DNA of 64,000 bases from positions 540-64,539 of IMG/VR virus record IMGVR_UViG_3300022178_002326. The stretch is one strand, 5' to 3'. Both the position numbers and the translations under genes were made by a program. How positions within the stretch are numbered: the first letter of the stretch is position 1; each line of letters starts with the position of its first letter. Positions 2-48,418 of this stretch are shown here, piece after piece. This DNA is from a virus. Its lineage: Duplodnaviria; Caudoviricetes. The notes under the pieces were generated by a model. That model did not search any database, had not been told where the DNA came from, and was given only the letters and a program-made list of their open reading frames with translations.

Positions 2-928
2 TCATGGTGGCAAGCTACTAACTTTTTTAATTACACTCAAGCTACTGATCGAGGTGTGCATCCTTTGTATATGATTGAGTTGTGTAATCAGACATGTAAG
101 AACATGTGGATCTGTGTGCCTCATATGGCTGACGATCTGTATGTTACTTACTTAGCATATCTTTGTAAGATTGCGCTTGATCCTTCTTTAACAGTGTACT
201 TGGAATATAGTAATGAGGTTTGGAACGGTCAATTTCAACAGACTCAATATGCACAGGCTGAGGGTTTAGCATTAGGTTTAAATCCTACTTCTTGGCACGC
301 TGGATGGCTATACTATTCTCAGAGATCGGTTGAGGTATTTGAAATATTTTCTAATGTCTACAGTCAGCCTAGAGATAGAAACTTAGTTAGAGTGTTAGCA
401 GGACAGAGTGTGAATCCTTGGGTGAACATTCAAATCATGGATTGGCAAGACGCTTACAAGCACGCGGATGCTTTTGCAGTCGCTCCATACTTTGGAGGGT
501 ATTTAGGTAATCTTAACATTTCTCCAAACACCGCTACTTTTTCAATTCCTCAGATATTAGCTGCTTGTGATACTGATAGTGCTAACAATCATTCACAGCA
601 TACACTGGCTAATTCAAACAATGCAAACTTTCGTGGTTTAGATCTTTTTGCTTACGAAGGAGGTCAACATCTGGTTGGAGTTGGAGTGGCTCAAAACGAT
701 CAAACGCTTACTAACTTATTCGTAGCCGCCAATAGAGATCCTTCAATGCGTACATTGTATTTCAATGATCTCACCAGATGGGAAGCTAATGGAGGGGGTT
801 TGTTTATGAACTACACTCTTACCAGCAGCCAGTCAAAATACGGATCCTGGGGTTTATTAGAGTGGCAAAACCAACCAAGGACAATGGCTCCAAAGTGGAT
901 GGGAGTTATGGACTACATAGGATACTAA
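2..928 (+). CDS. 5'-truncated clan GH-A (TIM-barrel) glycoside-hydrolase-like protein, EYSNEVWN family (often annotated cellulose-binding domain protein)
   Basis: Frame is open from base 2 (SWWQATNFFNYTQATDRGVHP...), so the gene starts upstream of the window. Motifs EYSNEVWN (acid/base-like NE) and AYEGGQH (nucleophile-like E), plus SKYGSWGLLE. Confidence 0.7.
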   Translation, partial: SWWQATNFFNYTQATDRGVHPLYMIELCNQTCKNMWICVPHMADDLYVTYLAYLCKIALDPSLTVYLEYSNEVWNGQFQQTQYAQAEGLALGLNPTSWHAGWLYYSQRSVEVFEIFSNVYSQPRDRNLVRVLAGQSVNPWVNIQIMDWQDAYKHADAFAVAPYFGGYLGNLNISPNTATFSIPQILAACDTDSANNHSQHTLANSNNANFRGLDLFAYEGGQHLVGVGVAQNDQTLTNLFVAANRDPSMRTLYFNDLTRWEANGGGLFMNYTLTSSQSKYGSWGLLEWQNQPRTMAPKWMGVMDYIGY

Positions 929-982: not shown

Positions 983-1696
983 TTATTTTACTTTTTTCCC
1001 GAGAGCAGTTTGTATGAGAAGTTCCAAGGCTTCGGCCTCATCAGAAGCAGCAATACCCATAGCAAGGATCGCAGTTTCTCGAATCTCCTGGTTGTTTGAT
1101 TCCAATCGTGGTTTGAACACATCTCTTAATTTAAAGTCTGGGTGAATGTCGCCAATCTTTGCCATCGCAATCATGCAACTTGAAACAATATCTCTTTGCT
1201 CAGTAGAGTCGATAGCCTTCTTTAAAGAAGCCAGGACACCAATCTTATCTTCCCTTGTAGGAAGAATTGAATCCTTTGCACCCTTTCGAGTGCTGCCTAA
1301 GTAGAACTCATCGGATCCTGTTTGAGGACCACCATTATAAAGTGCATCCTTCAACTTAATGAAAGGATCCTTATTGAACTCCCACCAGAATGCCCACTGA
1401 GTAAGATCATCTCCAAGGCGCATACCTCTTCCTCCCGTCTGAGGACCTCTTCCAGGGCCGGTAGGACCAGTAGGACCTCCGGTTGCAGGACCTTGAGGAG
1501 AGCCAGTGGCGGGTCCAGAGGGGCGGCCAGTTGAGGGTCCAGCAGGACCACCTGTAGTGGGACCAGAAGGTCTTCCAGTGCTACCACCTCCAGGACCAGG
1601 GGGAACTACATCTCCAGGCCCTCTATACTGACCTCCATGGGCCAGCAGAGTTGCTGTAAGAAATAAAACGCTTATAAGTGTCTTCATAATAATCAT
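983..1696 (-). CDS. Secreted Gly/Pro-rich HEAT-repeat protein fragment, Planctomycetota-like
   Basis: Signal peptide MKTLISVLFLTATLLA, then HGGQYRGPGDVVPPG, a G/P/T/S linker, WAFWWEFNKDPF, and HEAT-like segments (DIVSSCMIAMAKIG; EIRETAILAMGI). Family recognised from memory, not by search. Confidence 0.65.
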   Translation of the reverse strand: MIIMKTLISVLFLTATLLAHGGQYRGPGDVVPPGPGGGSTGRPSGPTTGGPAGPSTGRPSGPATGSPQGPATGGPTGPTGPGRGPQTGGRGMRLGDDLTQWAFWWEFNKDPFIKLKDALYNGGPQTGSDEFYLGSTRKGAKDSILPTREDKIGVLASLKKAIDSTEQRDIVSSCMIAMAKIGDIHPDFKLRDVFKPRLESNNQEIRETAILAMGIAASDEAEALELLIQTALGKKVK

Positions 1697-1742: not shown

Positions 1743-2000
1743 CTAGTAATTATCATCTAATAGTACATCATCTAGTATAAGAGGGAATGGAAACAATTCA
1801 TTCCCATCCTCCAAATTCCATGCCTCTTTAGTCTTATTGAATAATGGTGGAATAAGCATCTGAGCAGCATTGAACAAAGATATAGCAGTTATCTCGGAAC
1901 TAGCTAAATTTGTTTTTAGAAACTCTGTTTTAGCTGCATGATATGCTTGCTCTCTAATGTAGTCAATTATCTGCAATTTAACTTCTGAAGGGCATTCCAT
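1743..2000 (-). CDS. hypothetical protein
   Basis: 85-aa ORF filling the gap; no recognisable motif. Confidence 0.6.
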   Translation of the reverse strand: MECPSEVKLQIIDYIREQAYHAAKTEFLKTNLASSEITAISLFNAAQMLIPPLFNKTKEAWNLEDGNELFPFPLILDDVLLDDNY

Positions 2001-3652: not shown

Positions 3653-4072
3653 CTAGTCAATATAGTTTACATTAATCAGACCATCGATGTTACGTCTCAC
3701 ATTCCTAGCTTCTGCCTTGGGTGTGGTATCCTGCTCATAATCGTTTATAAGCACCCTACAACCGCTTGTAAGGCTCATTACAAGCTGGTCATACATGATA
3801 CCCGCGTTATCTAATTGTTTGATTGTACGCTCTCTCATGGATTCTGGTCTGGCTGTAGTTAGAATAATCTTATTGCCCTGACAATGCCATTTACAAATCT
3901 TTTTTGCTGCTTCGGGTAACGAAGGAATATCATCAGTTTTCATGACATCTAGAAAGTCTTCGGGTTGTATAAGAATTGTTCCATCAATATCGATAAAAAA
4001 TGTCTTTGCGTGCATAAATATAAGTGTGTTACTAAAAGTAAAATTTGGACTACGGCCTGTTACGAACTGCAC
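3653..4072 (-). CDS. HAD-superfamily phosphatase (small, capless type)
   Basis: FFIDIDGT motif I, ILTTARP motif II, LINDY acidic motif. True start may be the ATG at 4015. Confidence 0.8.
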   Translation of the reverse strand: MQFVTGRSPNFTFSNTLIFMHAKTFFIDIDGTILIQPEDFLDVMKTDDIPSLPEAAKKICKWHCQGNKIILTTARPESMRERTIKQLDNAGIMYDQLVMSLTSGCRVLINDYEQDTTPKAEARNVRRNIDGLINVNYID

Positions 4073-4091
4073 TGGTGGATGTTGACTACCC

Positions 4092-4403
4092 TCACTTTCC
4101 TTGCATTAATGGAAAAATGTTTAAATACATAATCCAACCGGCACCACTTCCTATACATCCTGCAAAAATTGCACTAAGGATTGGATTTGTGTCGAATTGT
4201 TGAAAAGGATCCCAGTGAAATGTAGACCAGAATACTCCTGCCCAGAATCCTGTACATAGGAAACAGTTTACAAGATTACCTAGAGGTGGCACTACCTTGG
4301 ATATAAGGTTTCTGACAGGAGCCATGATCGTACTGTTTACAACAATCGTTGTTGTTCCAAATACAGCCATTATCCAAACTAACACATCTACTAAATAATT
4401 CAT
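4092..4403 (-). CDS. small multi-pass membrane protein with CxxC (DUF1360-like)
   Basis: Three hydrophobic stretches and NCFLCTGFW motif. Confidence 0.65.
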   Translation of the reverse strand: MNYLVDVLVWIMAVFGTTTIVVNSTIMAPVRNLISKVVPPLGNLVNCFLCTGFWAGVFWSTFHWDPFQQFDTNPILSAIFAGCIGSGAGWIMYLNIFPLMQGK

Positions 4404-5128
4404 TTCGGTAACCCGTTTGTTTTATCTACTGGAAGAGAACAGGGGATGCTACTGTTCCACTCTCTCATAAACTCATCCTTAGCCTTATACCAACCTTCTC
4501 TCATTTGACCGTCAGACTCATGCCGGATCATTATAGGCACAACGTAGTTAGAATAACCTTTGGAATGTGCTAAAAAAGTTAAATGAATGTCGTAAAAATC
4601 CCATTTGCTGGTTAAGTAATGTGGTTGACCTAATCCAACATCTTGTATTGTTTTGATTGTAGCTGCAAGTAGACAACCATCAAGAACAGTAACTTGACCC
4701 GGTTGACCGAAATAATTAGGTTTCATAGTTACATCTTCTTTGCCTTGCCATACAAAGCCTCTTGTTTCTCCTGATTGCCTTGAAGTCCACCATACACCAT
4801 TCTTAGTAAAACTTGTAGCTCCAGCCACTCCTACAAACCCTACTCCTGGTTTTCTGGCAACTTCAATATACTCTCTAAATTTAGCTGGGGTAGAGAGTAT
4901 TTCTACATCGTCATGTATGAACACAACAACATCATCTTCCTCAGGTTGTTCAATCCTATTTAAATTACTTAAATGGCCTGCGTAGATTGAAGAAGCATTA
5001 TCTTCAATAAGCGTATGGATGTCTATAGTTGGATTTTCACCAAATGCATTTTTACTATAATCAATAAGTGATTGAAGAGTATTGCTTATATTCTCTTTAT
5101 CTCTGGTACATATACTTAAGTAAATCAT
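4400..5128 (-). CDS. GT-A fold glycosyltransferase (GT2-like / StrF-like family)
   Basis: VFIHDDVEI (DxD-like), VLDGCLLA, WDFYDIHL, IRHES motifs. Confidence 0.8.
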   Translation of the reverse strand: MIYLSICTRDKENISNTLQSLIDYSKNAFGENPTIDIHTLIEDNASSIYAGHLSNLNRIEQPEEDDVVVFIHDDVEILSTPAKFREYIEVARKPGVGFVGVAGATSFTKNGVWWTSRQSGETRGFVWQGKEDVTMKPNYFGQPGQVTVLDGCLLAATIKTIQDVGLGQPHYLTSKWDFYDIHLTFLAHSKGYSNYVVPIMIRHESDGQMREGWYKAKDEFMREWNSSIPCSLPVDKTNGLPK

Positions 5129-5135
5129 TTTTAAT

Positions 5136-6701
5136 ATGGAATATAATAGCCAAGACGTTCTGAAGATCCAAGAGGAATTTAAAAAATGCTCTCAAGACTG
5201 TGAGTATTTCACCAAGAACTACATCAAAGTTGTCCACCCTATTAGAGGTTTGGTTAATTTTGATCTGTATCCGTTTCAATCTAGGATTTTAAATGAGTTT
5301 CAAGATCATCGACTTACTATTCTCCGTAAGTTTAGGCAGGCTGGATGTACGACCCTAATGGCTGCTTATGCATTACATTTTTGTATATTTAACACAAACA
5401 AGAAAGTAGCGGTATTGTCTAAGGGTGATGCGGAGGCTAAAGAGCTTATATCCAGAGTAAAGATAATGTTTGACGAGCTTCCTTTTTGGATGAAGCCTAA
5501 AACTAAAAAGAATAATGATCATACTTTAGAGTTTGAAAATGGGTCATCGATCCAGTCTAAAGCATCAGGTAAGCAATCAGGTCGTTCTATATCTGCTTCT
5601 CTTTTAATACTAGATGAAGCTGCTTTTATTGAGTATATTGATACTATTTGGGCTGCTGTTGGTCCTACGACTTCTACAGGCGGTAGAGTGGTGTGCCTTT
5701 CTACGGTAAACGGAACAGGTAATTGGTTCCACAAAATGTATACTCAAGCGTTAGAGGATTCAAATGGATTTCATCATATTGACATTAAATGGCAAGAGAA
5801 TCCTGAATACAAAAGACACGAAGGTTATGAAAGCCTTTACGCTGAGTTAGAATCTTATGACCCTCCTATCCTAGTTGATAAGTGGGAAGATATTACTAGA
5901 AAAAAGCATAGCTTTAAGGAATGGGAACAGGAGTATGAGGGTAGTTTCCTAGGTACAGGTGATACTTACATTGAAGGTGAGATCCTAAGAAACTTAAAAG
6001 AAAACTGCAATAAAGATTACTGGATAAAATATAACAACAAAATGCGTGTGTGGGAGGACCCTAAACCCAACCATGAATATGTCTTAGCTGCTGACCCTTC
6101 CATAGGTAGAGATCGAGATTACTCAGCATTCCACATCATTGACATCTATAATGGTAAGCAAGTTGCAGAGTTTTACAGTAATCGAACGCCGATTAACGAA
6201 TTTGCAAAAATCATAGCTGACGAAGCAAGATTGTACAATACTGCATTTGTATGTCCTGAGAGGAACGGAATTGGCAACAATTTAATCTACTTCTTACAGC
6301 AGGAGCTAGAGTATGAGAATCTGGTAATGGATGATAAGCGTGAGATCGGGATAATGATTACCCAGAAGAATAAAGAGAAGCTTTTAGCAGATATGGAGCA
6401 TAATATTAGATCTAGCAGGGTTTTAATAAACTCAGAGAGATTGGTCGATGAGCTTCTTACTTTTGTTATTGACCCTGATTCTGGCAAGATTAAGCCTGAT
6501 ACTAACTGTCATGATGATTTAATTATGTCTTTTGCCACCGCTATCTCTACTTTTAATGAGTTAAGAGGGAATGCATACATAGAAAAGTCAGAAGATGAAA
6601 CTTATATCCCTCCTGCGGTGCAGAACGCTTATACATATAAAGTAACGACCTCAACCGGAGAGTTGACCGAAGAGAATATTAAATGGCTGATAGGAAAATA
6701 A
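5136..6701 (+). CDS. gp17: terminase large subunit (T4 gp17-like)
   Basis: KFRQAGCTT Walker A-like, LILDEAAF Walker B, STVNG motif III, nuclease acidic residues (AADPSIG, HDDLIMS). Confidence 0.97.
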   Translation: MEYNSQDVLKIQEEFKKCSQDCEYFTKNYIKVVHPIRGLVNFDLYPFQSRILNEFQDHRLTILRKFRQAGCTTLMAAYALHFCIFNTNKKVAVLSKGDAEAKELISRVKIMFDELPFWMKPKTKKNNDHTLEFENGSSIQSKASGKQSGRSISASLLILDEAAFIEYIDTIWAAVGPTTSTGGRVVCLSTVNGTGNWFHKMYTQALEDSNGFHHIDIKWQENPEYKRHEGYESLYAELESYDPPILVDKWEDITRKKHSFKEWEQEYEGSFLGTGDTYIEGEILRNLKENCNKDYWIKYNNKMRVWEDPKPNHEYVLAADPSIGRDRDYSAFHIIDIYNGKQVAEFYSNRTPINEFAKIIADEARLYNTAFVCPERNGIGNNLIYFLQQELEYENLVMDDKREIGIMITQKNKEKLLADMEHNIRSSRVLINSERLVDELLTFVIDPDSGKIKPDTNCHDDLIMSFATAISTFNELRGNAYIEKSEDETYIPPAVQNAYTYKVTTSTGELTEENIKWLIGK

Positions 6702-8488
6702 GAGAGGGTGCGGAAGGGTTTACTCAGTTTGCGGATCCACAGGCTCCGTATAATAAGCCTTACGGATTAATTGGTAGATTCTTCAAGAAGTTTTTTGCCC
6801 GAGAAATAGAGGATGTAAAGGATGATCAGTATGTAGATCCTTTAACTAAAAGGAACGTGGCATCACCTAAACCTCTTCAAGGGGATACGGTCCAGTCTAA
6901 TCAAGTAATCACTATCGCTTCTGAGTTTGGGCACGAGAAAACTTTTTATCCTGTTCTCCCTCAGATCGAACATGATCGTAAGAAGAGATACAAAGAGTAT
7001 GAGGATATGGATGGTTACCCAGAGATATCTTCCGCATTCGATATTTACTCTGATGATTGTACCCAAGAGAATATAGATGGAACTCCTTGGAATGTCGTTA
7101 CAGATGATGAGCTTGTTAAGAGAGAAGTTGAGAACATGTTTGAGCAAACTAACATGGCTCGATACCTGTGGGATATAGGAAGGAATACTGTAAAGTATGG
7201 GGATATATTCCTTGAAACTATTATCGATCTTGATAACGCAAAAAGAGGGATTCAAAGAATTAAGATACTGAATCCCAATTTTATATTTAGAGTTGAAGAT
7301 GAGTTTGGATATCTAAGACAATTTCTTCAAGAAATCCCAAAGAAGAATGATTGGACATCATACGGAAGTATCGGACCAGCCCTTGACGATTCAAAGATGA
7401 TTAGTCTCGACCCAGGTCAGATTATTCACTTTAGACTTCACACTTCAGATCCTACCCATTACCCTTATGGCAAGTCGGTTGCTGCTGCGGCTAGAGTCAC
7501 CTATAAGAGTCTAAAGATGATGGAGGATGCAATGCTTATCTATCGTCTAGTTAGAGCACCAGAGAGACGTATATTCTACATAGACACGGGTTCACTACCT
7601 GCTTCAAAGGCTGAAATGCATATTAAGAAGCAGATGGACAAGTTCAAGAAACGTAAAAGTTATAACTCTCAGACTGGCAACATTGAAGAGAATTTTAACG
7701 CACTAGCTGCTGATGAAGATTTTTACATTGCCGTGAATGGTAAGGGTTCGGGAACCAAGATTGATACTCTTCAAGGGGCTGACAACTTAGGTGAAGTTGA
7801 TGATGTTAAATACTTTAGGGATAAGCTTTTAGCTGCTCTTAAGATTCCTAAGGATTACATTGTAGAGAAGGATCAATCTCCTGAGAGAAAAGCAAACCTA
7901 TCCCAGCTTGACGTTAAGTTTGCTAGGGTTATTACTAGAATTCAAAAGTCTTTAGAAATTGGATTGGAAACCTTAGCAAAGCGTCACTTGATGCTTAGAG
8001 GATTCCCTAAAATTTTAATATCTAAACTAAAAGTTAAATTACCTGCCCCTTCAGATATGGCTCTTAAACGTCAGTTAGATACTGATGAGCAGAAGGCTAG
8101 AGTTGTGCAAGCTGTTAAGGGACTTAACATCTTCCCGTTAGAGAAAATCTACAAAGACTATTATCAAATGTCAGATTCTGAAATCGATGAAGTTAAGGAT
8201 GGTCTCGAATCTGATCAGAAAGATCCCGCATTCACCGCTGCTTTAGGGGGAATGGATGCAGGAATGGGAGCACCGATGGGTGGTGAAATGCCAATGGGAG
8301 AGCCTCCTGGTGAACCTATGGAATCAGCAGAGAACAGCCCTCCCCCAGCTATGGAATCTGTAGATATTGAAGCTATGAAGTCTTTAGCAATTGAGGCTAA
8401 TTGTGACAGTGAGTTGATAGAACTCTTGGAAGAAATGGGACAACAAGAACATTTTAAATCCCAAGAGGCTGAGAGCCGGTCTAAATAA
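6683..8488 (+). CDS. gp20: portal protein (T4 gp20-like)
   Basis: LKMMEDAMLIYRLVRAPERRIFYID, EDFYI, DDVKYFRDKLLAALKIPK; acidic Pro/Gly/Met C-tail. Confidence 0.97.
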   Translation: MADRKIREGAEGFTQFADPQAPYNKPYGLIGRFFKKFFAREIEDVKDDQYVDPLTKRNVASPKPLQGDTVQSNQVITIASEFGHEKTFYPVLPQIEHDRKKRYKEYEDMDGYPEISSAFDIYSDDCTQENIDGTPWNVVTDDELVKREVENMFEQTNMARYLWDIGRNTVKYGDIFLETIIDLDNAKRGIQRIKILNPNFIFRVEDEFGYLRQFLQEIPKKNDWTSYGSIGPALDDSKMISLDPGQIIHFRLHTSDPTHYPYGKSVAAAARVTYKSLKMMEDAMLIYRLVRAPERRIFYIDTGSLPASKAEMHIKKQMDKFKKRKSYNSQTGNIEENFNALAADEDFYIAVNGKGSGTKIDTLQGADNLGEVDDVKYFRDKLLAALKIPKDYIVEKDQSPERKANLSQLDVKFARVITRIQKSLEIGLETLAKRHLMLRGFPKILISKLKVKLPAPSDMALKRQLDTDEQKARVVQAVKGLNIFPLEKIYKDYYQMSDSEIDEVKDGLESDQKDPAFTAALGGMDAGMGAPMGGEMPMGEPPGEPMESAENSPPPAMESVDIEAMKSLAIEANCDSELIELLEEMGQQEHFKSQEAESRSK

Positions 8489-8509: not shown

Positions 8510-10357
8510 ATGCTAACTAACCTTATTGAAAATCGCGGAAAAGAGTTCAGTAACCTAATTAAACTTGGGGATTACCTCGCTAGAACTCTGAGAGAAAATG
8601 TAGAACTATTTAACGTGGAGGATGGTGTCGCAACCTACCTTACTGAGAGTGGATCTGTTATTAGTGGAAAATACGCATTCACCCCTACCTTAAACTTATC
8701 TAAGATTATCGTAGAGGATGCTTCCGTTCTTGAAGATGTAAAATCTTTTGAATCCGCTACAGATAAGAAAGTAATGAAATTACTATCTAATCTTCTTGAG
8801 GATGATTATCAATCTGCTGATAATTCTTTTGATAAGATATTATCTATGTTTGAAACTAAGATGTCTTATGACAGGATCAAAACAAGACTTCAAGAGAAGG
8901 TTGAAAGGTTTGGAGAGCAAACCAAGATCATATCTTCACCGGAGTTCCAACGTGTTAACGAGATTAAGGATAAGATTGTTGAGTTCTTAAAGGAAAATAA
9001 GAATGTCATCCAGTCTTCGGGTATTAAGAATGGCATGAAACTAGCAGCACTAGTCTCAACATCTTTTGACCTTCCTCGCATGACGGTCAATCAAATTCAA
9101 GAAAGCAAGAAGTTTGAAGTTAAAACGATTGGCAAGACTAGCATTTATGAGCACCTATGCAGAAAGGAGTTAATTCAAAAAGAACTTCTAGAAGCTAAGG
9201 AAGGCTTTGAAAACATTTGGGTTACGAACGACAGCGTTCAAGAGTTGGCTTCGATGATCTTCGAGTCTGATGAAGGCACCGTAAGGCATCAAGTGGCTCA
9301 GGTAGTTTCAGAAGCTCCCTATCTTGCGCTATCTACTAAGAAGCAAATTTCAAATCTGATCCGTAACTCACTTTCAGTGAATGAGATCAAGGCTAAAGAT
9401 CGAGAGATAAACTCGTTTGCTAGTAAGATTTTTGAAATGAAGGGTCCTGTTAAGAAGCACGTTATTAACATTCTTAATGAAAAGTATGGTATTGACGTAC
9501 GCAAGTTAAGCGAAGTTCCTACATTTAAAACCTTAGTAATGACTGAGGCTGAGATACTTACTCATATCGCAGGATTTGCTCCTTCCAAGTCGATTGTAAA
9601 GAAGTCTCTTCTAGAGCTTGCTAGATCCCTTAAGCTAAAGAACGGTTCGGAGGCTATCGACTTATCTGATTTCTTAAATGAGATATTTGCGGAAGCTGAG
9701 TATGCCGGAGTATTGAATGAGACTAGTTTGATGGATTACATGGATTTCTCTAGAGTCGCTGATGACTTAGGGAAGATTGGTCAAGTTCTGAAGATGCTGG
9801 GTCCTGCTGTTGATAAGGTAGCAGACCAAGTAGAGGATCACGGAGAGGACATGGCCGATGATAAGCCTATGGAAATGGGACAAGAAAAGCCAGAAGATCC
9901 TTTAGGATCCCCCGACCCTATGGATAGTGAATCAGAAACTCCTATGGATATGAAGCCTGAAGGACCGGATGCTGATGAGGTTGCTGATGAGGTTAAGGGC
10001 GAAGTCGAAGATGAAGAGGCAGCAGCGTTCCCTGAAGAAGAAATGCCTGAAGAAGATGGCGAAGAGGAGATGCCTGAATTAGACGGTGAAGAAGAGATGG
10101 AAGATGGTGAGGAAGAGATGGAAGATGGTGAGGAAGAGATGGAAGGCGAAGATGAAGGAGAAGATGTAAAGGAAATGCCTGAAGATGATCTGACTGGAAT
10201 CCTATCTAAGCTTGAAGACCTTCTAGGAGATTTAAAGGGTGATGATGAGGGTGAAGAAGAATTCGAAGATGATGAGGAAGAAGAAGAATTCGAAGATGAA
10301 GAAGAAGAGGATGACGACGAAGATGATGAGTTGGATCCTGAGCAATACAAGAGTTAG
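8510..10357 (+). CDS. helical protein with very long acidic C-terminal tail; probable prohead core/internal protein
   Basis: Directly follows portal; roughly the last 190 aa are dominated by D/E and include EEEMEDG repeats; LxE motifs (NLIE, VLNE). Function inferred. Confidence 0.5.
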   Translation: MLTNLIENRGKEFSNLIKLGDYLARTLRENVELFNVEDGVATYLTESGSVISGKYAFTPTLNLSKIIVEDASVLEDVKSFESATDKKVMKLLSNLLEDDYQSADNSFDKILSMFETKMSYDRIKTRLQEKVERFGEQTKIISSPEFQRVNEIKDKIVEFLKENKNVIQSSGIKNGMKLAALVSTSFDLPRMTVNQIQESKKFEVKTIGKTSIYEHLCRKELIQKELLEAKEGFENIWVTNDSVQELASMIFESDEGTVRHQVAQVVSEAPYLALSTKKQISNLIRNSLSVNEIKAKDREINSFASKIFEMKGPVKKHVINILNEKYGIDVRKLSEVPTFKTLVMTEAEILTHIAGFAPSKSIVKKSLLELARSLKLKNGSEAIDLSDFLNEIFAEAEYAGVLNETSLMDYMDFSRVADDLGKIGQVLKMLGPAVDKVADQVEDHGEDMADDKPMEMGQEKPEDPLGSPDPMDSESETPMDMKPEGPDADEVADEVKGEVEDEEAAAFPEEEMPEEDGEEEMPELDGEEEMEDGEEEMEDGEEEMEGEDEGEDVKEMPEDDLTGILSKLEDLLGDLKGDDEGEEEFEDDEEEEEFEDEEEEDDDEDDELDPEQYKS

Positions 10358-45814: not shown

Positions 45815-48418
45815 GTGACGGGATTTAATTATTTAATATATAATGGATGTCGAACGGCAATCCTTCCCGGCTTTCAAAACCCTGTAGGGCCTTCTCAGCC
45901 GGGATCTAGCCCAGTCATTCTGGTGCCTTCAGAACCTAAGCCTGCATTCCCTGTTTTTATTCCCAACGGAGATCCTCCCGGCCCAGGAACTGGAGGTCCA
46001 ACCACTCCAAACCCTCAGTTCCCAGGACCTGGAGGACCGTCAACAGGAGGTCCAACCACAACAGGTCCAACGGGTCCGTCAACAGGAGGTCCCGCAGGTC
46101 CAACCACAACAGGTCCAACGGGTCCGTCAACAGGAGGTCCCGCAGGTCCAACCACAACAGGTCCAACGGGTCCGTCAACAGGAGGTCCTGCGAAAATGTA
46201 TCGATGCCAAGAGATTAGATTCATTTGTCCAGAAGATTTAGAGAGACCGTTAAGTCAACAAAGGGTAAGGTCAATTCTTCGTAATTGCGTCGAAGAGTTT
46301 CCTGGCCTAGGCCCAGGAGTTATTGCGTCAGGGATGCAAGGTAACGAAGGATATGTCATTGTCCTTGGAGGTCTTAAAACTCAACAGCAGTGTGCTCAGT
46401 CTTGTGTGCCTCCTCAATCGGTATTTTCTGTAACTTGTGGACCCTTAGGAGGCGGCGGCGGTGGAGGAGGAGGTTCTGAGCCTCCTCAGAATTATGTTAG
46501 ACAAACTTTATCCGAGATAGAGATTAATCAACAAAATCAAAACACTAGCAATGGAAACGAAATAAGTGTTGACAAATCTCTACTTCCCAGGTTCCAAGCA
46601 AACTTGTATAGTAATGTTTATACTCCTTCTCTTTATGATCCTCAGAAAAATTTCTTCAAGGTAGCTGTTACCACTGAAATAGAAAGCTCAGTCAATAACT
46701 CTTATAGAAATGTGTTTAGGCAGTCTGTGGCTAAGGAAGTTAATAGCTTACTTCGTTATCAAAGCACTATTAATAGAGAGTGGGAAGAGACCGCTATTCA
46801 AAATCTAACTGATGAAAAATTAATATTTAGCTTAAACTCTAACCTAGTAGAAGCTTTCAATAATCTTAGAGACATAACGGGTAAAGTTATTGGACTATCT
46901 TCTTTCTTAGAGGTTGTTAGAAAACATATTGTAACAGGAACTCTGAATGAGTTTAATCCTGAATATTACCTAAGAAGTTACCAGCTACAGAAGTCTAATA
47001 AATTTGTTAGCTTTGCTAAGTCTGAGAGTAAGAGTTCTAATGAATTATTCTCTCTACTGTATTTAAAAGATTCAGAATTCAACTTATCAAACACTCCTAG
47101 GCAAGGACAAAAGTTAATTGAAATGGGAAGGTTTAGATTTTTAAACGAAGATTTGAATGTTTCTCTGGGTATAACAAAAGAAGATGGTTCCAAGGTTGAC
47201 TTGTCTGTTCCAAACGAGGGGATACCCATAAACTTCTTGGCTAGTAAAAGTGCTTCAACTCCTCCTAGCGTTGGGTCTCCAGAATTACTAAACATAGGAG
47301 ACGGGGGCGGTTACTATTTTGCGTCAAGAGTTCTTGATGATAATCAAATCCCGGTAGCTACCTCAAACTCTTCTAAAACATCTTACTACGCTCCTGCTTC
47401 AGTGAGATCGGCCCTACTAGAGGTTGTTGATTCTAGCTTTGAATACACGATAAAAGCAAAGTCTTTAGTTAGTAAGAATGAATTTGTTAGCGGCGACACA
47501 GGAACAAGTGTTTTGGAGCCTTTGTACTTTGGAGCAAATTTAGCTTCTGTCTCTAGCTTTTCGTTTAACAACGGAACAGTAGAGTCTTATTCCTCCACCT
47601 ATTCTAGAATTACGGAACCGTCTAGTATTCAGCAGCATATAAATAACAACGCTCTTAGCATTCCTGAGGTGTACTTGGATTACAGAGACCCTCTATACAG
47701 ATACATTCTAGATGCTTCTTCTTTTGACATGGAGTCTAAAGATTTAAGTAATAAAGGATTTGAGTCTAACCCTGTTGTTTTAGGGGAAGATAACTTCGTA
47801 AAGAATATTCCATTTGCTTTTATAATTATTCCTAGTAGGGGTTCTAACTTCAATCCTTTCAATGGTAGGTCCACAGTGACTGAGATGTCGGATACTGTAA
47901 CTAGGGAGATTACTCTTAGACCCCCCATCAATACCTCAATTTCTAAGGAAAAAAGCAACAACTTTGAATTCTATAATCTTTATAATGATGACGGGTCTAA
48001 AAGAATAGGCTTCAATGAAGAAGAGGATTTCCATAACTTTGGGTATCGATATGTCCCTAGCAACTATTATAATTCATTTTATTCTGATGGATCGGTATCA
48101 ACCAGTTCTTCCCCTGTATCTTCTTATGGCTCCTCATATCTGGTGAAGGACGTATTGGATTTTATAAAAGACGAGCATAATCCATCCTCTATAGTATGGT
48201 TTGATGTGTTTAGCAGGATGCCCTTATCTAAGGTTGGTGAGCTAATGTATGACATGCCAGAGGGGTTTATGGACCTAATAGCAAACGGGTATAGGCACGG
48301 GATACATGTTAAAAATGCTCAAAGGTCATCGAATAACCCTGTATCTCTATTACCTAGCGATTCAAAGACTATAGTTAACAGTTCTAATAGAAAAGACTTA
48401 AGGTCAGTGGATCGTTAA
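45815..48418 (+). CDS. probable structural protein with N-terminal Gly/Pro/Thr tandem repeat
   Basis: GTG start with AGGA upstream; GPTTTGPTGPSTGGPA x3; Cys-rich segment; poly-Gly linker. Confidence 0.6.
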   Translation: MTGFNYLIYNGCRTAILPGFQNPVGPSQPGSSPVILVPSEPKPAFPVFIPNGDPPGPGTGGPTTPNPQFPGPGGPSTGGPTTTGPTGPSTGGPAGPTTTGPTGPSTGGPAGPTTTGPTGPSTGGPAKMYRCQEIRFICPEDLERPLSQQRVRSILRNCVEEFPGLGPGVIASGMQGNEGYVIVLGGLKTQQQCAQSCVPPQSVFSVTCGPLGGGGGGGGGSEPPQNYVRQTLSEIEINQQNQNTSNGNEISVDKSLLPRFQANLYSNVYTPSLYDPQKNFFKVAVTTEIESSVNNSYRNVFRQSVAKEVNSLLRYQSTINREWEETAIQNLTDEKLIFSLNSNLVEAFNNLRDITGKVIGLSSFLEVVRKHIVTGTLNEFNPEYYLRSYQLQKSNKFVSFAKSESKSSNELFSLLYLKDSEFNLSNTPRQGQKLIEMGRFRFLNEDLNVSLGITKEDGSKVDLSVPNEGIPINFLASKSASTPPSVGSPELLNIGDGGGYYFASRVLDDNQIPVATSNSSKTSYYAPASVRSALLEVVDSSFEYTIKAKSLVSKNEFVSGDTGTSVLEPLYFGANLASVSSFSFNNGTVESYSSTYSRITEPSSIQQHINNNALSIPEVYLDYRDPLYRYILDASSFDMESKDLSNKGFESNPVVLGEDNFVKNIPFAFIIIPSRGSNFNPFNGRSTVTEMSDTVTREITLRPPINTSISKEKSNNFEFYNLYNDDGSKRIGFNEEEDFHNFGYRYVPSNYYNSFYSDGSVSTSSSPVSSYGSSYLVKDVLDFIKDEHNPSSIVWFDVFSRMPLSKVGELMYDMPEGFMDLIANGYRHGIHVKNAQRSSNNPVSLLPSDSKTIVNSSNRKDLRSVDR
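46049..46192 (+). repeat. 3 x 48-bp in-frame tandem repeat
   Basis: Unit ggtccaaccacaacaggtccaacgggtccgtcaacaggaggtcccgca at 46049, 46097 and 46145; the third copy differs only in its last two codons. Confidence 0.95.

What the first reader, a model, noticed from the sequence alone, without database searches (positions are those of the whole stretch)
983..1696. Truncated Planctomycetota-type secreted HEAT-repeat gene: host clue and possible decoy
Seen: signal peptide, HGGQYRGPGDVVPPG, a G/P/T linker, WAFWWEFNK, about two HEAT-like repeats, then an abrupt stop at 237 aa. From memory, this N-terminal architecture is characteristic of much longer HEAT/PBS-repeat proteins of Planctomycetota. Codons are phage-like (A/T-ending), suggesting long residence rather than contamination. 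Inference: the phage infects a planctomycete (few such phages are characterised) and exports a shortened version of a host envelope protein, perhaps as a dominant-negative, receptor blocker or superinfection-exclusion factor.
Basis: partly seen in the sequence, partly recalled or inferred. Interest (0 to 1): 0.72.

Follow-up and report, generated by a model that had tools for sequence, protein, structure and literature searches.

The report
Phage copy of planctomycete HEAT gene, shortened
A marine T4-like phage carries a well-conserved, exported, one-third-length copy of a helical-repeat protein otherwise found only in uncultured Planctomycetota, which points to a rarely documented phage host group; what the protein does is still unknown.

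Summary
Window 983-1696 (-) encodes 237 aa: a signal peptide, HGGQYRGPGDVVPPG, a Gly/Pro/Thr linker, WAFWWEFNK, then five HEAT-type helices.

- **Origin.** Its relatives are about 690-aa exported HEAT proteins of Planctomycetota MAGs (up to 72% identity). They occur as 2-9 paralogues per genome, in 26 of 26 sampled genomes of one GTDB family.
- **Not decay.** 50 of 53 short forms make one clade nested among the host proteins. Every locus held has low GC, many carry terminase neighbours, and the stop position is fixed. Median dN/dS is 0.125, GC3 is phage-like (0.34 against 0.66-0.80), and no C-terminal remnant is left. A subclade is 17 aa shorter.
- **New here.** More distant relatives of this phage carry full-length, selected copies from a separate capture (AU p = 0.001). 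Host copies sit behind sigma-54-type promoters; the phage copy does not.
- **Host and function.** The host inference is indirect. No spacer-like match was found, and the GC gap is large. The decoy function is untested, and the full-length phage copies count against truncation being the essential design.

The scan has already noted the host family in other genomes. The phage form appears new: there was no match in 50,697 GenBank phages. Interest is moderate to high.

The parts
983..1696 (-). Whole CDS, 237 aa plus stop (stop codon 983-985): phage-borne short form (type S1) of the Planctomycetota exported HEAT-A family.
1640..1696 (-). aa 1-19: Sec-type signal peptide (inferred). It is shorter than in host proteins: median 18 residues before HGG against 24. 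The residue at -1 is always Ala.
   Evidence: alignment
1595..1639 (-). aa 20-34, HGGQYRGPGDVVPPG: family-specific motif, invariant in phage and host copies, and the predicted mature N-terminus.
   Evidence: In five host genomes the motif occurs only in HEAT paralogues.
1418..1594 (-). aa 35-93: Gly/Pro/Thr-rich linker predicted to be disordered. The HGG-to-FWW spacing has a median of 83 residues in both phage and host forms.
1340..1417 (-). aa 94-119: Trp-rich helix (DLTQWAFWWEFNKDPF...), invariant. It is confidently helical in the host full-length model (pLDDT 83-92) but low-confidence in the phage model.
1004..1255 (-). aa 148-231: five helices, about 2.5 HEAT repeats, pLDDT 85-90. They correspond to the first helices of the host's continuous solenoid (residues 153-662).
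983..1003 (-). aa 232-237 plus stop: phage-specific C-terminal tail (..LGKKVK). The stop lies inside what is a continuous solenoid in the host, not at a domain boundary.
1743..2000 (-). Upstream 85-aa ORF on the same strand, with no family hit. A TATAAT-like box lies between it and the HEAT gene's start. No sigma-54-type site is present.
3653..5128 (-). HAD phosphatase, small membrane protein and glycosyltransferase. In related phages the glycosyltransferase, the membrane protein and then the HEAT gene lie head-to-tail next to the terminase.
5136..6701 (+). T4-type large terminase. It marks the contig as a phage and anchors the synteny.
2..928 (+). Convergent neighbour: the C-terminal 308 aa of a 497-aa protein with cellular homologues at 42-47% identity. 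It was seen beside the short HEAT gene in two other loci (L003, L102), and on a contig of the same length as the one carrying the shorter form P0039.

Best explanation
**Shown**
- This is a host-derived gene fixed in a clade of uncultured marine T4-like phages.
- It was captured from the first paralogue ('HEAT-A') of a tandem, exported, roughly 690-aa HEAT-solenoid family of Planctomycetota.
- It was cut to the N-terminal third. It has since been fully ameliorated and kept under purifying selection, with a fixed stop position.
- It keeps every invariant N-terminal element of the host protein: the signal peptide, the His-Gly-Gly motif at the predicted mature N-terminus, the 83-residue spacing, the Trp-rich helix and the first 2.5 repeats.
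- It has lost the remaining roughly 450-aa solenoid, the GILDIL C-terminus and the host's sigma-54-type promoter.

**Inferred mechanism**
- During infection the phage exports this fragment from its own promoter.
- The fragment then occupies whatever envelope or periplasmic partner the host HEAT-A N-terminal module binds, without supplying the rest of the scaffold. It acts as a competitive mimic that changes the envelope to the phage's advantage, for example by excluding other phages.

**Likelihood of each step**
- Origin and selection: about 0.9.
- Planctomycete host: about 0.65.
- Mimic or occupancy mechanism: about 0.35.
For: **Homology and truncation.** 441 longer homologues were found, mostly 685-695 aa, at 50-69% identity over 90-95% of the query. 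Identity reaches 72% in genomes. Alignment A1 shows colinearity and the stop point.

**Phage-borne, not bacterial.**
- Every short-form locus for which DNA is held has GC 0.41-0.48 and 118-137 residues from the motif to the stop.
- Every long-form locus in a MAG has GC 0.56-0.74 and about 580 residues after the motif.
- Glycosyltransferase, membrane protein and terminase lie in synteny in more than 15 contigs.

**One clade.** 50 of 53 short forms group together in the full tree (SH-aLRT 98). In the careful tree the 18 sampled short forms form one clade (98/93), sister (95/86) to a four-member host clade.

**Selection.** Median dN/dS is 0.125 over 77 unsaturated pairs, with a maximum of 0.39. 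No C-terminal remnant exists in the window or in any short-form locus.

**Amelioration.** GC3 is 0.34 against 0.66-0.80.

**Retained module.** The invariant columns are shared by phage and host. The spacing is 83 residues in both. The HGG motif is exclusive to this family.

**Structure.** The host protein is one continuous solenoid, so the phage stop lies inside it.

**Regulation.** A sigma-54-type site lies upstream of 92 of 119 host genes, against 0.03 expected per window. Only 3 of 34 phage copies have one, and the window copy has none.
Against: - The function of the host family is unknown. There is no PDB relative for the N-terminal third, only generic solenoid fold matches, and no literature.
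- Related phages keep full-length copies, with dN/dS about 0.10 in both halves. Truncation is therefore not required for a phage to profit from this family.
- The binding partner is hypothetical.
- The phage model is low-confidence outside the five helices (mean pLDDT 57).
- No direct host link was found.
- Signal-peptide cleavage and export are inferred, not shown.
Confidence: 0.45

Rival explanations
1. Partial-function auxiliary gene. The N-terminal module is itself the active part of HEAT-A. The phage supplies it to keep up or boost a host envelope function that is normally gated by sigma-54, much as cyanophages supply PstS or PsbA. On this reading it helps the function rather than blocking it.
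For: - Full-length phage copies are under selection along their whole length. This fits supplying a normal function.
- Host copies are conditionally expressed from sigma-54-type promoters, which the phage copies lack.
- All invariant N-terminal residues are retained.
Against: - The stop falls inside a continuous solenoid. Two-thirds of a conserved protein is lost, including the invariant C-terminal motifs.
- A subclade has removed another helix.
- No activity is known for any part of the family.
Confidence: 0.25
2. A phage-specific new role unrelated to the host partner. Examples are an envelope-spanning lysis or entry accessory that uses the long Pro/Gly spacer, or a substrate or partner of the adjacent glycosyltransferase and membrane-protein module.
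For: - The glycosyltransferase, the membrane protein and the HEAT gene lie head-to-tail in most related contigs.
- The branch leading to the phage clade is long (0.16-0.23).
- The C-terminal tail is phage-specific.
Against: - Conservation of exactly the host-invariant residues argues for the same molecular contacts as in the host.
- In the 196-kb contig the gene sits in a different neighbourhood, without the glycosyltransferase.
Confidence: 0.12
3. A non-functional remnant, an assembly chimera, or a naturally short bacterial family.
For: - Pfam support for HEAT is below threshold.
- A few short proteins carry Planctomycetota MAG names marked 'partial'.
Against: - dN/dS is 0.125.
- The stop is identical in dozens of sequences.
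- GC3 is phage-like.
- Synteny holds across independent contigs.
- Of the three short-length sequences placed among host long forms, one is identical to a long form over the compared region (so it is a fragment). One is a source-labelled 'partial' protein. One comes from a high-GC contig where the gene stops early.
Confidence: 0.03

Closest known systems
Planctomycetota exported tandem HEAT-repeat paralogues (HGGQYRGPG ... FWWEF ... GILDIL; Pfam HEAT_2 PF13646 plus HEAT_PBS PF03130; function unknown)
   Same: - Colinear over the whole phage protein at up to 72% identity.
- Same signal-peptide plan, invariant HGG motif, 83-residue spacing, Trp-rich helix and first five helices.
- The phage clade nests inside the HEAT-A subfamily.
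   Different: - Lacks about 450 aa of solenoid and the conserved C-terminus.
- Lacks the sigma-54-type promoter.
- Has AT-rich codons and a shorter signal peptide.
- Is phage-borne.
Host-derived auxiliary genes of marine T4-like cyanophages (psbA, pstS and others; from established knowledge, not tested here)
   Same: - A T4-like marine phage carries an ameliorated copy of a host-specific gene under purifying selection.
- Exchange with hosts is repeated: at least two captures here.
- Like PstS, the product has an export signal.
- Low-GC phages infecting high-GC hosts have a precedent in that group.
   Different: - The function is unknown and not evidently metabolic.
- The copy in this phage is a one-third fragment, not a complete protein.
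Periplasmic or envelope superinfection-exclusion proteins of phages (T4 Sp and Imm, T5 Llp; from established knowledge)
   Same: A small exported phage protein with no virion role evident. This is a plausible analogy for how an exported fragment could benefit the phage.
   Different: - No sequence relationship: no PHROG hit and no match in 50,697 GenBank phages.
- Those proteins are not truncated host genes.
- The exclusion role here is pure inference.
Artificial alphaRep and natural PBS-type HEAT solenoids, beta-catenin, PP2A-A (structural neighbours)
   Same: A generic alpha-solenoid fold in the host full-length model. The sequence match to alphaRep is confined to host residues 534-653.
   Different: The matches lie in the part the phage protein lacks. 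The N-terminal third has no solved relative.

Membership tests
Planctomycetota exported HEAT-A/B family | Signal peptide followed by the invariant A|HGGxYxGP motif | tested here: met
   aa 19-27 of the phage protein. The motif is invariant in A1 and A2 and exclusive to the family in five genomes.
Planctomycetota exported HEAT-A/B family | Gly/Pro-rich linker and FWWEFNK Trp-rich helix at a fixed spacing | tested here: met
   The spacing is 83 residues, equal to the host median. The W motif is invariant.
Planctomycetota exported HEAT-A/B family | Continuous solenoid of about 510 aa ending in ...GILDIL | tested here: not met
   Only five helices are present. The stop comes 135 aa after the motif, against about 580. 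No remnant lies downstream.
Planctomycetota exported HEAT-A/B family | Sigma-54-type -24/-12 promoter upstream | tested here: not met
   92 of 119 host genes have one. The window copy has none, and only 3 of 34 phage copies do.
Planctomycetota exported HEAT-A/B family | Phylogenetic placement within the family | tested here: met
   The short clade is nested in host HEAT-A and sister to P0098/P0100/P0102/P0104 (95/86).
Pfam HEAT_2 (PF13646) | Score at or above the gathering threshold | tested here: not met
   16.4 bits against a cut-off of 27.7, E 0.011. The fold of aa 148-231 is nevertheless HEAT-like.
Host-derived auxiliary phage gene | Cellular homologues, presence in several independent phage genomes, and purifying selection | tested here: met
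Host-derived auxiliary phage gene | Demonstrated contribution to host physiology during infection | not testable with these tools
   No host culture and no expression data.
Superinfection-exclusion or decoy protein | Blocks a receptor or an incoming phage function | not testable with these tools
   No homology to known exclusion proteins. The partner is unknown.

The most novel reading that the evidence does not exclude
A cosmopolitan clade of marine T4-like phages infects uncultured Planctomycetota of the family that includes the CL500-15 / OM190-type lineage. These phages have repeatedly captured a sigma-54-controlled exported HEAT scaffold gene. One lineage evolved a minimal exported N-terminal mimic that hijacks or blocks the host's envelope partner. 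If so, this would be both a marker gene for phages of that uncultured group, for which I found no described phage, and a bacterial-virus analogue of truncated decoy proteins.
Probability: 0.3. Interest if true: 0.78.

Novelty: new variant of a known kind. Interest (0 to 1): 0.62.

Why it matters
**A host clue for a poorly known group.** Phages of Planctomycetota are almost undescribed. A 2025 review of the phylum mentions phage once (PMC12673574). The one characterised example I found is a 21-kb chronic phage (PMC10945688). This gene ties a widespread group of Tara and JGI marine viral contigs to one planctomycete family. That family includes a MAG labelled CL500-15, a lineage placed in the uncultured OM190 class (PMC5607371). 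The gene could serve as a marker for host assignment.

**A handle on an uncharacterised protein family.** The host family is a large, multi-copy, sigma-54-controlled family of unknown function. The phage has in effect carried out a natural deletion experiment. It shows that the N-terminal third is a selectable unit by itself, which tells experimenters where to look for the binding partner.

Tried and rejected
The contexts of the 196-kb, 121-kb, 86-kb and 72-kb contigs could only be sampled through the search for related loci.
- **Spacer-like or other DNA matches** of window 1-60 kb in the 91 genomes of the donor family: nothing but the HEAT gene itself and a GAA-rich low-complexity stretch. 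Only three candidates per genome were scored, so sensitivity is limited. Window 60-64 kb was not searched.
- **tRNAs for host matching:** none in the window.
- **GTDB names** for the donor family are withheld by the tool.
- **NCBIfam, PHROGs and GenBank phages:** no hit for the protein.
- **PDB sequence and Foldseek searches:** only generic solenoids, and only in the part the phage lacks.
- **Literature searches** for the motifs and for HEAT proteins in planctomycete phages: nothing relevant.
- **Host gene neighbourhood.** PfkB, LPG_synthase_TM, DUF366 and a 460-aa protein lie on one side of HEAT-A and HEAT-B. A spermine-synthase-like protein, a 448-aa protein and a TPR protein lie on the other. 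The arrangement is strongly conserved but gave no functional clue.
- **Amino-acid composition** did not separate phage-borne from host-borne long forms, so P0216 and P0220 remain unassigned.
- **The neighbouring 497-aa gene** has homologues in several phyla and so does not sharpen the host call.
- **Rejected readings:** a chimeric contig, a recent pseudogene and a natural short bacterial family (see the rival explanations).

Full report
**1. The observation**

Window 983..1696 (-) is an intact 237-aa ORF. It reads, in order:
- a hydrophobic N-terminus ending in Ala19;
- HGGQYRGPGDVVPPG (aa 20-34);
- a Gly/Pro/Thr linker (aa 35-93);
- DLTQWAFWWEFNKDPF (W101-K109);
- a helical part.

Pfam sees only a sub-threshold HEAT_2 match at aa 186-230. 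NCBIfam and PHROGs see nothing. AlphaFold2 with a 37-sequence alignment gives five helices at aa 148-231 (pLDDT 85-90) and low confidence elsewhere.

The contig is a phage. A T4-type large terminase starts at 5136. The record is an IMG/VR virus of 64.5 kb with an estimated completeness of 55%. Its terminase is at most 34% identical to any GenBank phage; the nearest are T4-like myoviruses of Flavobacterium, Synechococcus, Vibrio and Rhodothermus.

**2. What it is related to**

- The near-length search found about 60 proteins of 210-255 aa at 54-97% identity.
- The longer-length search found 441 proteins, nearly all 685-695 aa with HEAT_2 and HEAT_PBS domains. Where named, they come from Planctomycetota MAGs. 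They match 90-95% of the query at 50-69% identity.
- An exhaustive phmmer search of 1.84 billion representatives gave the same picture, as did the ESM Atlas.
- In GTDB species genomes, 320 stretches encode a relative. All but a handful of the best 80 carry Planctomycetota or planctomycete-lineage titles. The exceptions are four 'uncultured bacterium' records, two plain 'bacterium' records, and one GC-0.70 contig binned as Luminiphilus.
- Host genomes carry 2-9 paralogues, often two or three in tandem.
- All 26 sampled genomes of the donor's GTDB family have the gene, against 16 of 151 sampled across the phylum at E <= 1e-25.
- That family includes a MAG its depositors labelled CL500-15 (L035 = G026). 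CL500-15 is placed in the uncultured OM190 class by Okazaki et al. (PMC5607371). This is a lead that rests on a depositor's label, not a tested classification.

**3. Phage form against host form**

Every locus for which I hold DNA falls into one of two classes.
- Low-GC loci (0.41-0.48) have a gene that stops 118-137 residues after FWWEFNK. Where the contig is long enough, they also carry homologues of this window's glycosyltransferase, small membrane protein, terminase and portal.
- MAG loci at GC 0.56-0.74 have a gene that runs about 580 residues past the motif.

The exceptions:
- three low-GC viral contigs that carry full-length genes (section 5);
- two high-GC contigs where the gene stops early (L052 = L115, and L113).

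Among the short forms, about 36 end ...LALGKEVK, 134-137 residues after the motif. About 14 end 17 residues earlier at ...GIAALGK.

In a 117-row tree, 50 of 53 short forms make one clade (SH-aLRT 98) inside the host clade, and the shorter type forms a supported subclade within it. Of the three outliers, one is identical to a long form over the compared region (a fragment). One is a source-labelled 'partial' protein. One comes from the high-GC contig L052, where the gene stops early.

A careful PMSF tree of 54 rows gives 98/93 support for the short clade. It places that clade as sister (95/86) to four host proteins.

**4. Is it functional?**

- Sixteen distinct phage coding sequences give a median dN/dS of 0.125 over 77 pairs with 0.05 < dS < 2, and a maximum of 0.39.
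- GC3 is 0.34, like other genes of this phage (0.26-0.37). Host orthologues have 0.66-0.80.
- tblastn with the host C-terminal 440 aa finds nothing in the 64-kb window or in any short-form locus. The truncation is therefore old and clean.
- The residues invariant across host proteins in the N-terminal third are also invariant in the phage clade.
- The HGG-to-FWW spacing has a median of 83 residues in both.
- In five host genomes the A-HGG-x-Y-x-GP motif occurs only at HEAT paralogues, with zero control hits. It is a family hallmark, not a general sorting tag.

**5. Two findings that change the picture**

(a) Viral contigs L136, L138 and L140 carry full-length genes of 682-686 aa.
- They have low GC, terminase 53-59% identical to the window's, and glycosyltransferase and membrane-protein homologues nearby.
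- Their HEAT genes have phage-like GC3 (0.30-0.36) and the complete C-terminus ...GILDIL.
- For L136 against L140, dN/dS is 0.096 in the part this phage retains and 0.103 in the part it lacks.
- In the tree these copies sit in a different supported clade (95/95), beside other host proteins.
- An AU test rejects a single phage clade (delta lnL 50, p = 0.001). One caveat applies: the grouping was named after the first tree had been seen.
- This phage group has therefore taken the gene from Planctomycetota at least twice. That strengthens the host inference. It also shows that truncation is a derived, lineage-specific state.

(b) Following a lead from an earlier report of this scan (e1-2316317), I tested for sigma-54-type -24/-12 elements.
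- All nine strict matches (TGGCAY-N5-TTGCW) in 968 kb of host loci lie just upstream of HEAT genes.
- With a 9-of-11 criterion, 92 of 119 host genes have one within 300 nt, against 0.03 expected per window.
- Only 3 of 34 phage copies have one, and the window copy has none.
- The phage copy is therefore uncoupled from the host's conditional control.

**6. Structure**

The host protein P0096 (80-sequence alignment, mean pLDDT 83) is modelled as:
- a signal helix;
- a disordered stretch, residues 18-100;
- a confident Trp-rich helix, residues 106-126;
- a short disordered stretch;
- one uninterrupted solenoid, residues 153-662.

The phage stop corresponds to the end of the fifth solenoid helix, not to a domain boundary. 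Foldseek returns only generic solenoids: alphaRep, beta-catenin, PP2A-A and Rpn1. PDB sequence matches are confined to residues 534-653.

The host neighbourhood is conserved in 36-39 of 44 loci but is uninformative about function.

**7. Mechanism**

Shown:
- capture from Planctomycetota;
- truncation;
- fixation and purifying selection;
- retention of the whole N-terminal module;
- loss of the solenoid body, the C-terminal motif and the sigma-54 promoter.

Inferred:
- export through Sec and cleavage before His20;
- occupation of the partner of the host's N-terminal module.

I favour a competitive-mimic reading (about 0.35) over a partial-function auxiliary reading (about 0.25) for two reasons. 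The cut removes two-thirds of a continuous conserved scaffold. A sublineage has then trimmed one more helix while keeping the N-terminal elements intact. The full-length phage copies keep the auxiliary reading alive. Nothing here tests receptor blocking or superinfection exclusion.

**8. Host**

In favour:
- the family was found only in this phylum;
- the phage clade nests within one host subclade;
- related phages made a second capture.

Against, or missing:
- no spacer-like match in 91 family genomes for window 1-60 kb, in a search of limited sensitivity;
- no tRNA;
- a GC gap of 0.39 against 0.56-0.74.

From general knowledge, T4-like cyanophages of about 40% GC infect Synechococcus of about 60% GC, so the gap is not disqualifying. 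The neighbouring 497-aa gene also has cellular homologues, but in several phyla.

**9. Novelty**

The host family has been noted several times by this scan in other genomes. The phage-borne short form has no match among 50,697 GenBank phages, and I found no paper on it. It is a new variant of a known kind: host-derived phage genes and viral mimicry by truncated host proteins.

Noticed in passing
L136:8001-10049, L138:7512-9572, L140:8001-10061 (viral contigs): Full-length (682-686 aa) phage-borne copies of the same HEAT family. They have phage-like GC3, lie near terminase, glycosyltransferase and membrane-protein homologues, are under purifying selection in both halves, and come from a separate capture.
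   Followed up: yes
Host loci L012-L089, within 300 nt upstream of each AHGG codon: Sigma-54-type -24/-12 elements lie upstream of 92 of 119 host HEAT genes. All nine strict-consensus sites in 968 kb lie there.
   Followed up: yes
window 2-928 (+); full gene L010:1-1443: A 497-aa protein convergent on the HEAT gene has close homologues (55-92% identity, most about 497 aa), at least one labelled as viral, and cellular homologues at 42-47% in several phyla. Some cellular ones carry T9SS sorting domains and some are named Gemmatales or Planctomycetes. It has an NEVWN motif typical of clan GH-A glycosidases (my reading; there is no Pfam hit).
   Followed up: partly
window 10100-10357 (+): The 615-aa protein ends in an extremely acidic Glu/Asp low-complexity tail. 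Its GAA-rich DNA gave spurious 75-84% matches in many planctomycete genomes.
   Followed up: yes
window 46022-46189 (+), inside the 867-aa ORF at 45815-48418: A Gly/Pro/Thr repeat resembles the HEAT linker (71% over 58 aa, E 1e-4). It is low-complexity, so homology is doubtful.
   Followed up: partly
L104 (196,655-bp Tara contig, GC 0.42), gene at 6001-6711: The short form also sits in a very large viral-like contig among DprA-like, phosphohydrolase, ATPase and phosphoesterase genes. No neighbour of the gene there matches any gene of this window. The gene has either moved between phage lineages or lies in a variable region of a much larger genome.
   Followed up: partly
L134:8001-8624 (viral contig, shorter type): One phage copy keeps a 10-of-11 sigma-54-type site about 100 nt upstream, and no gene of its locus matches any gene of this window.
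   Followed up: no
L052 = L115 (GC 0.72, Planctomycetota MAG contig); G148:C9:627713-628150: Two high-GC copies look broken. One stops 122 aa after the motif; the other has an in-frame TGA. They may be host pseudogenes or sequencing errors.
   Followed up: no
L015 (3.9-kb contig binned as Luminiphilus sp., GC 0.70): It carries a full-length HEAT-A gene 66% identical to the query. This is probably a mis-binned planctomycete contig.
   Followed up: no
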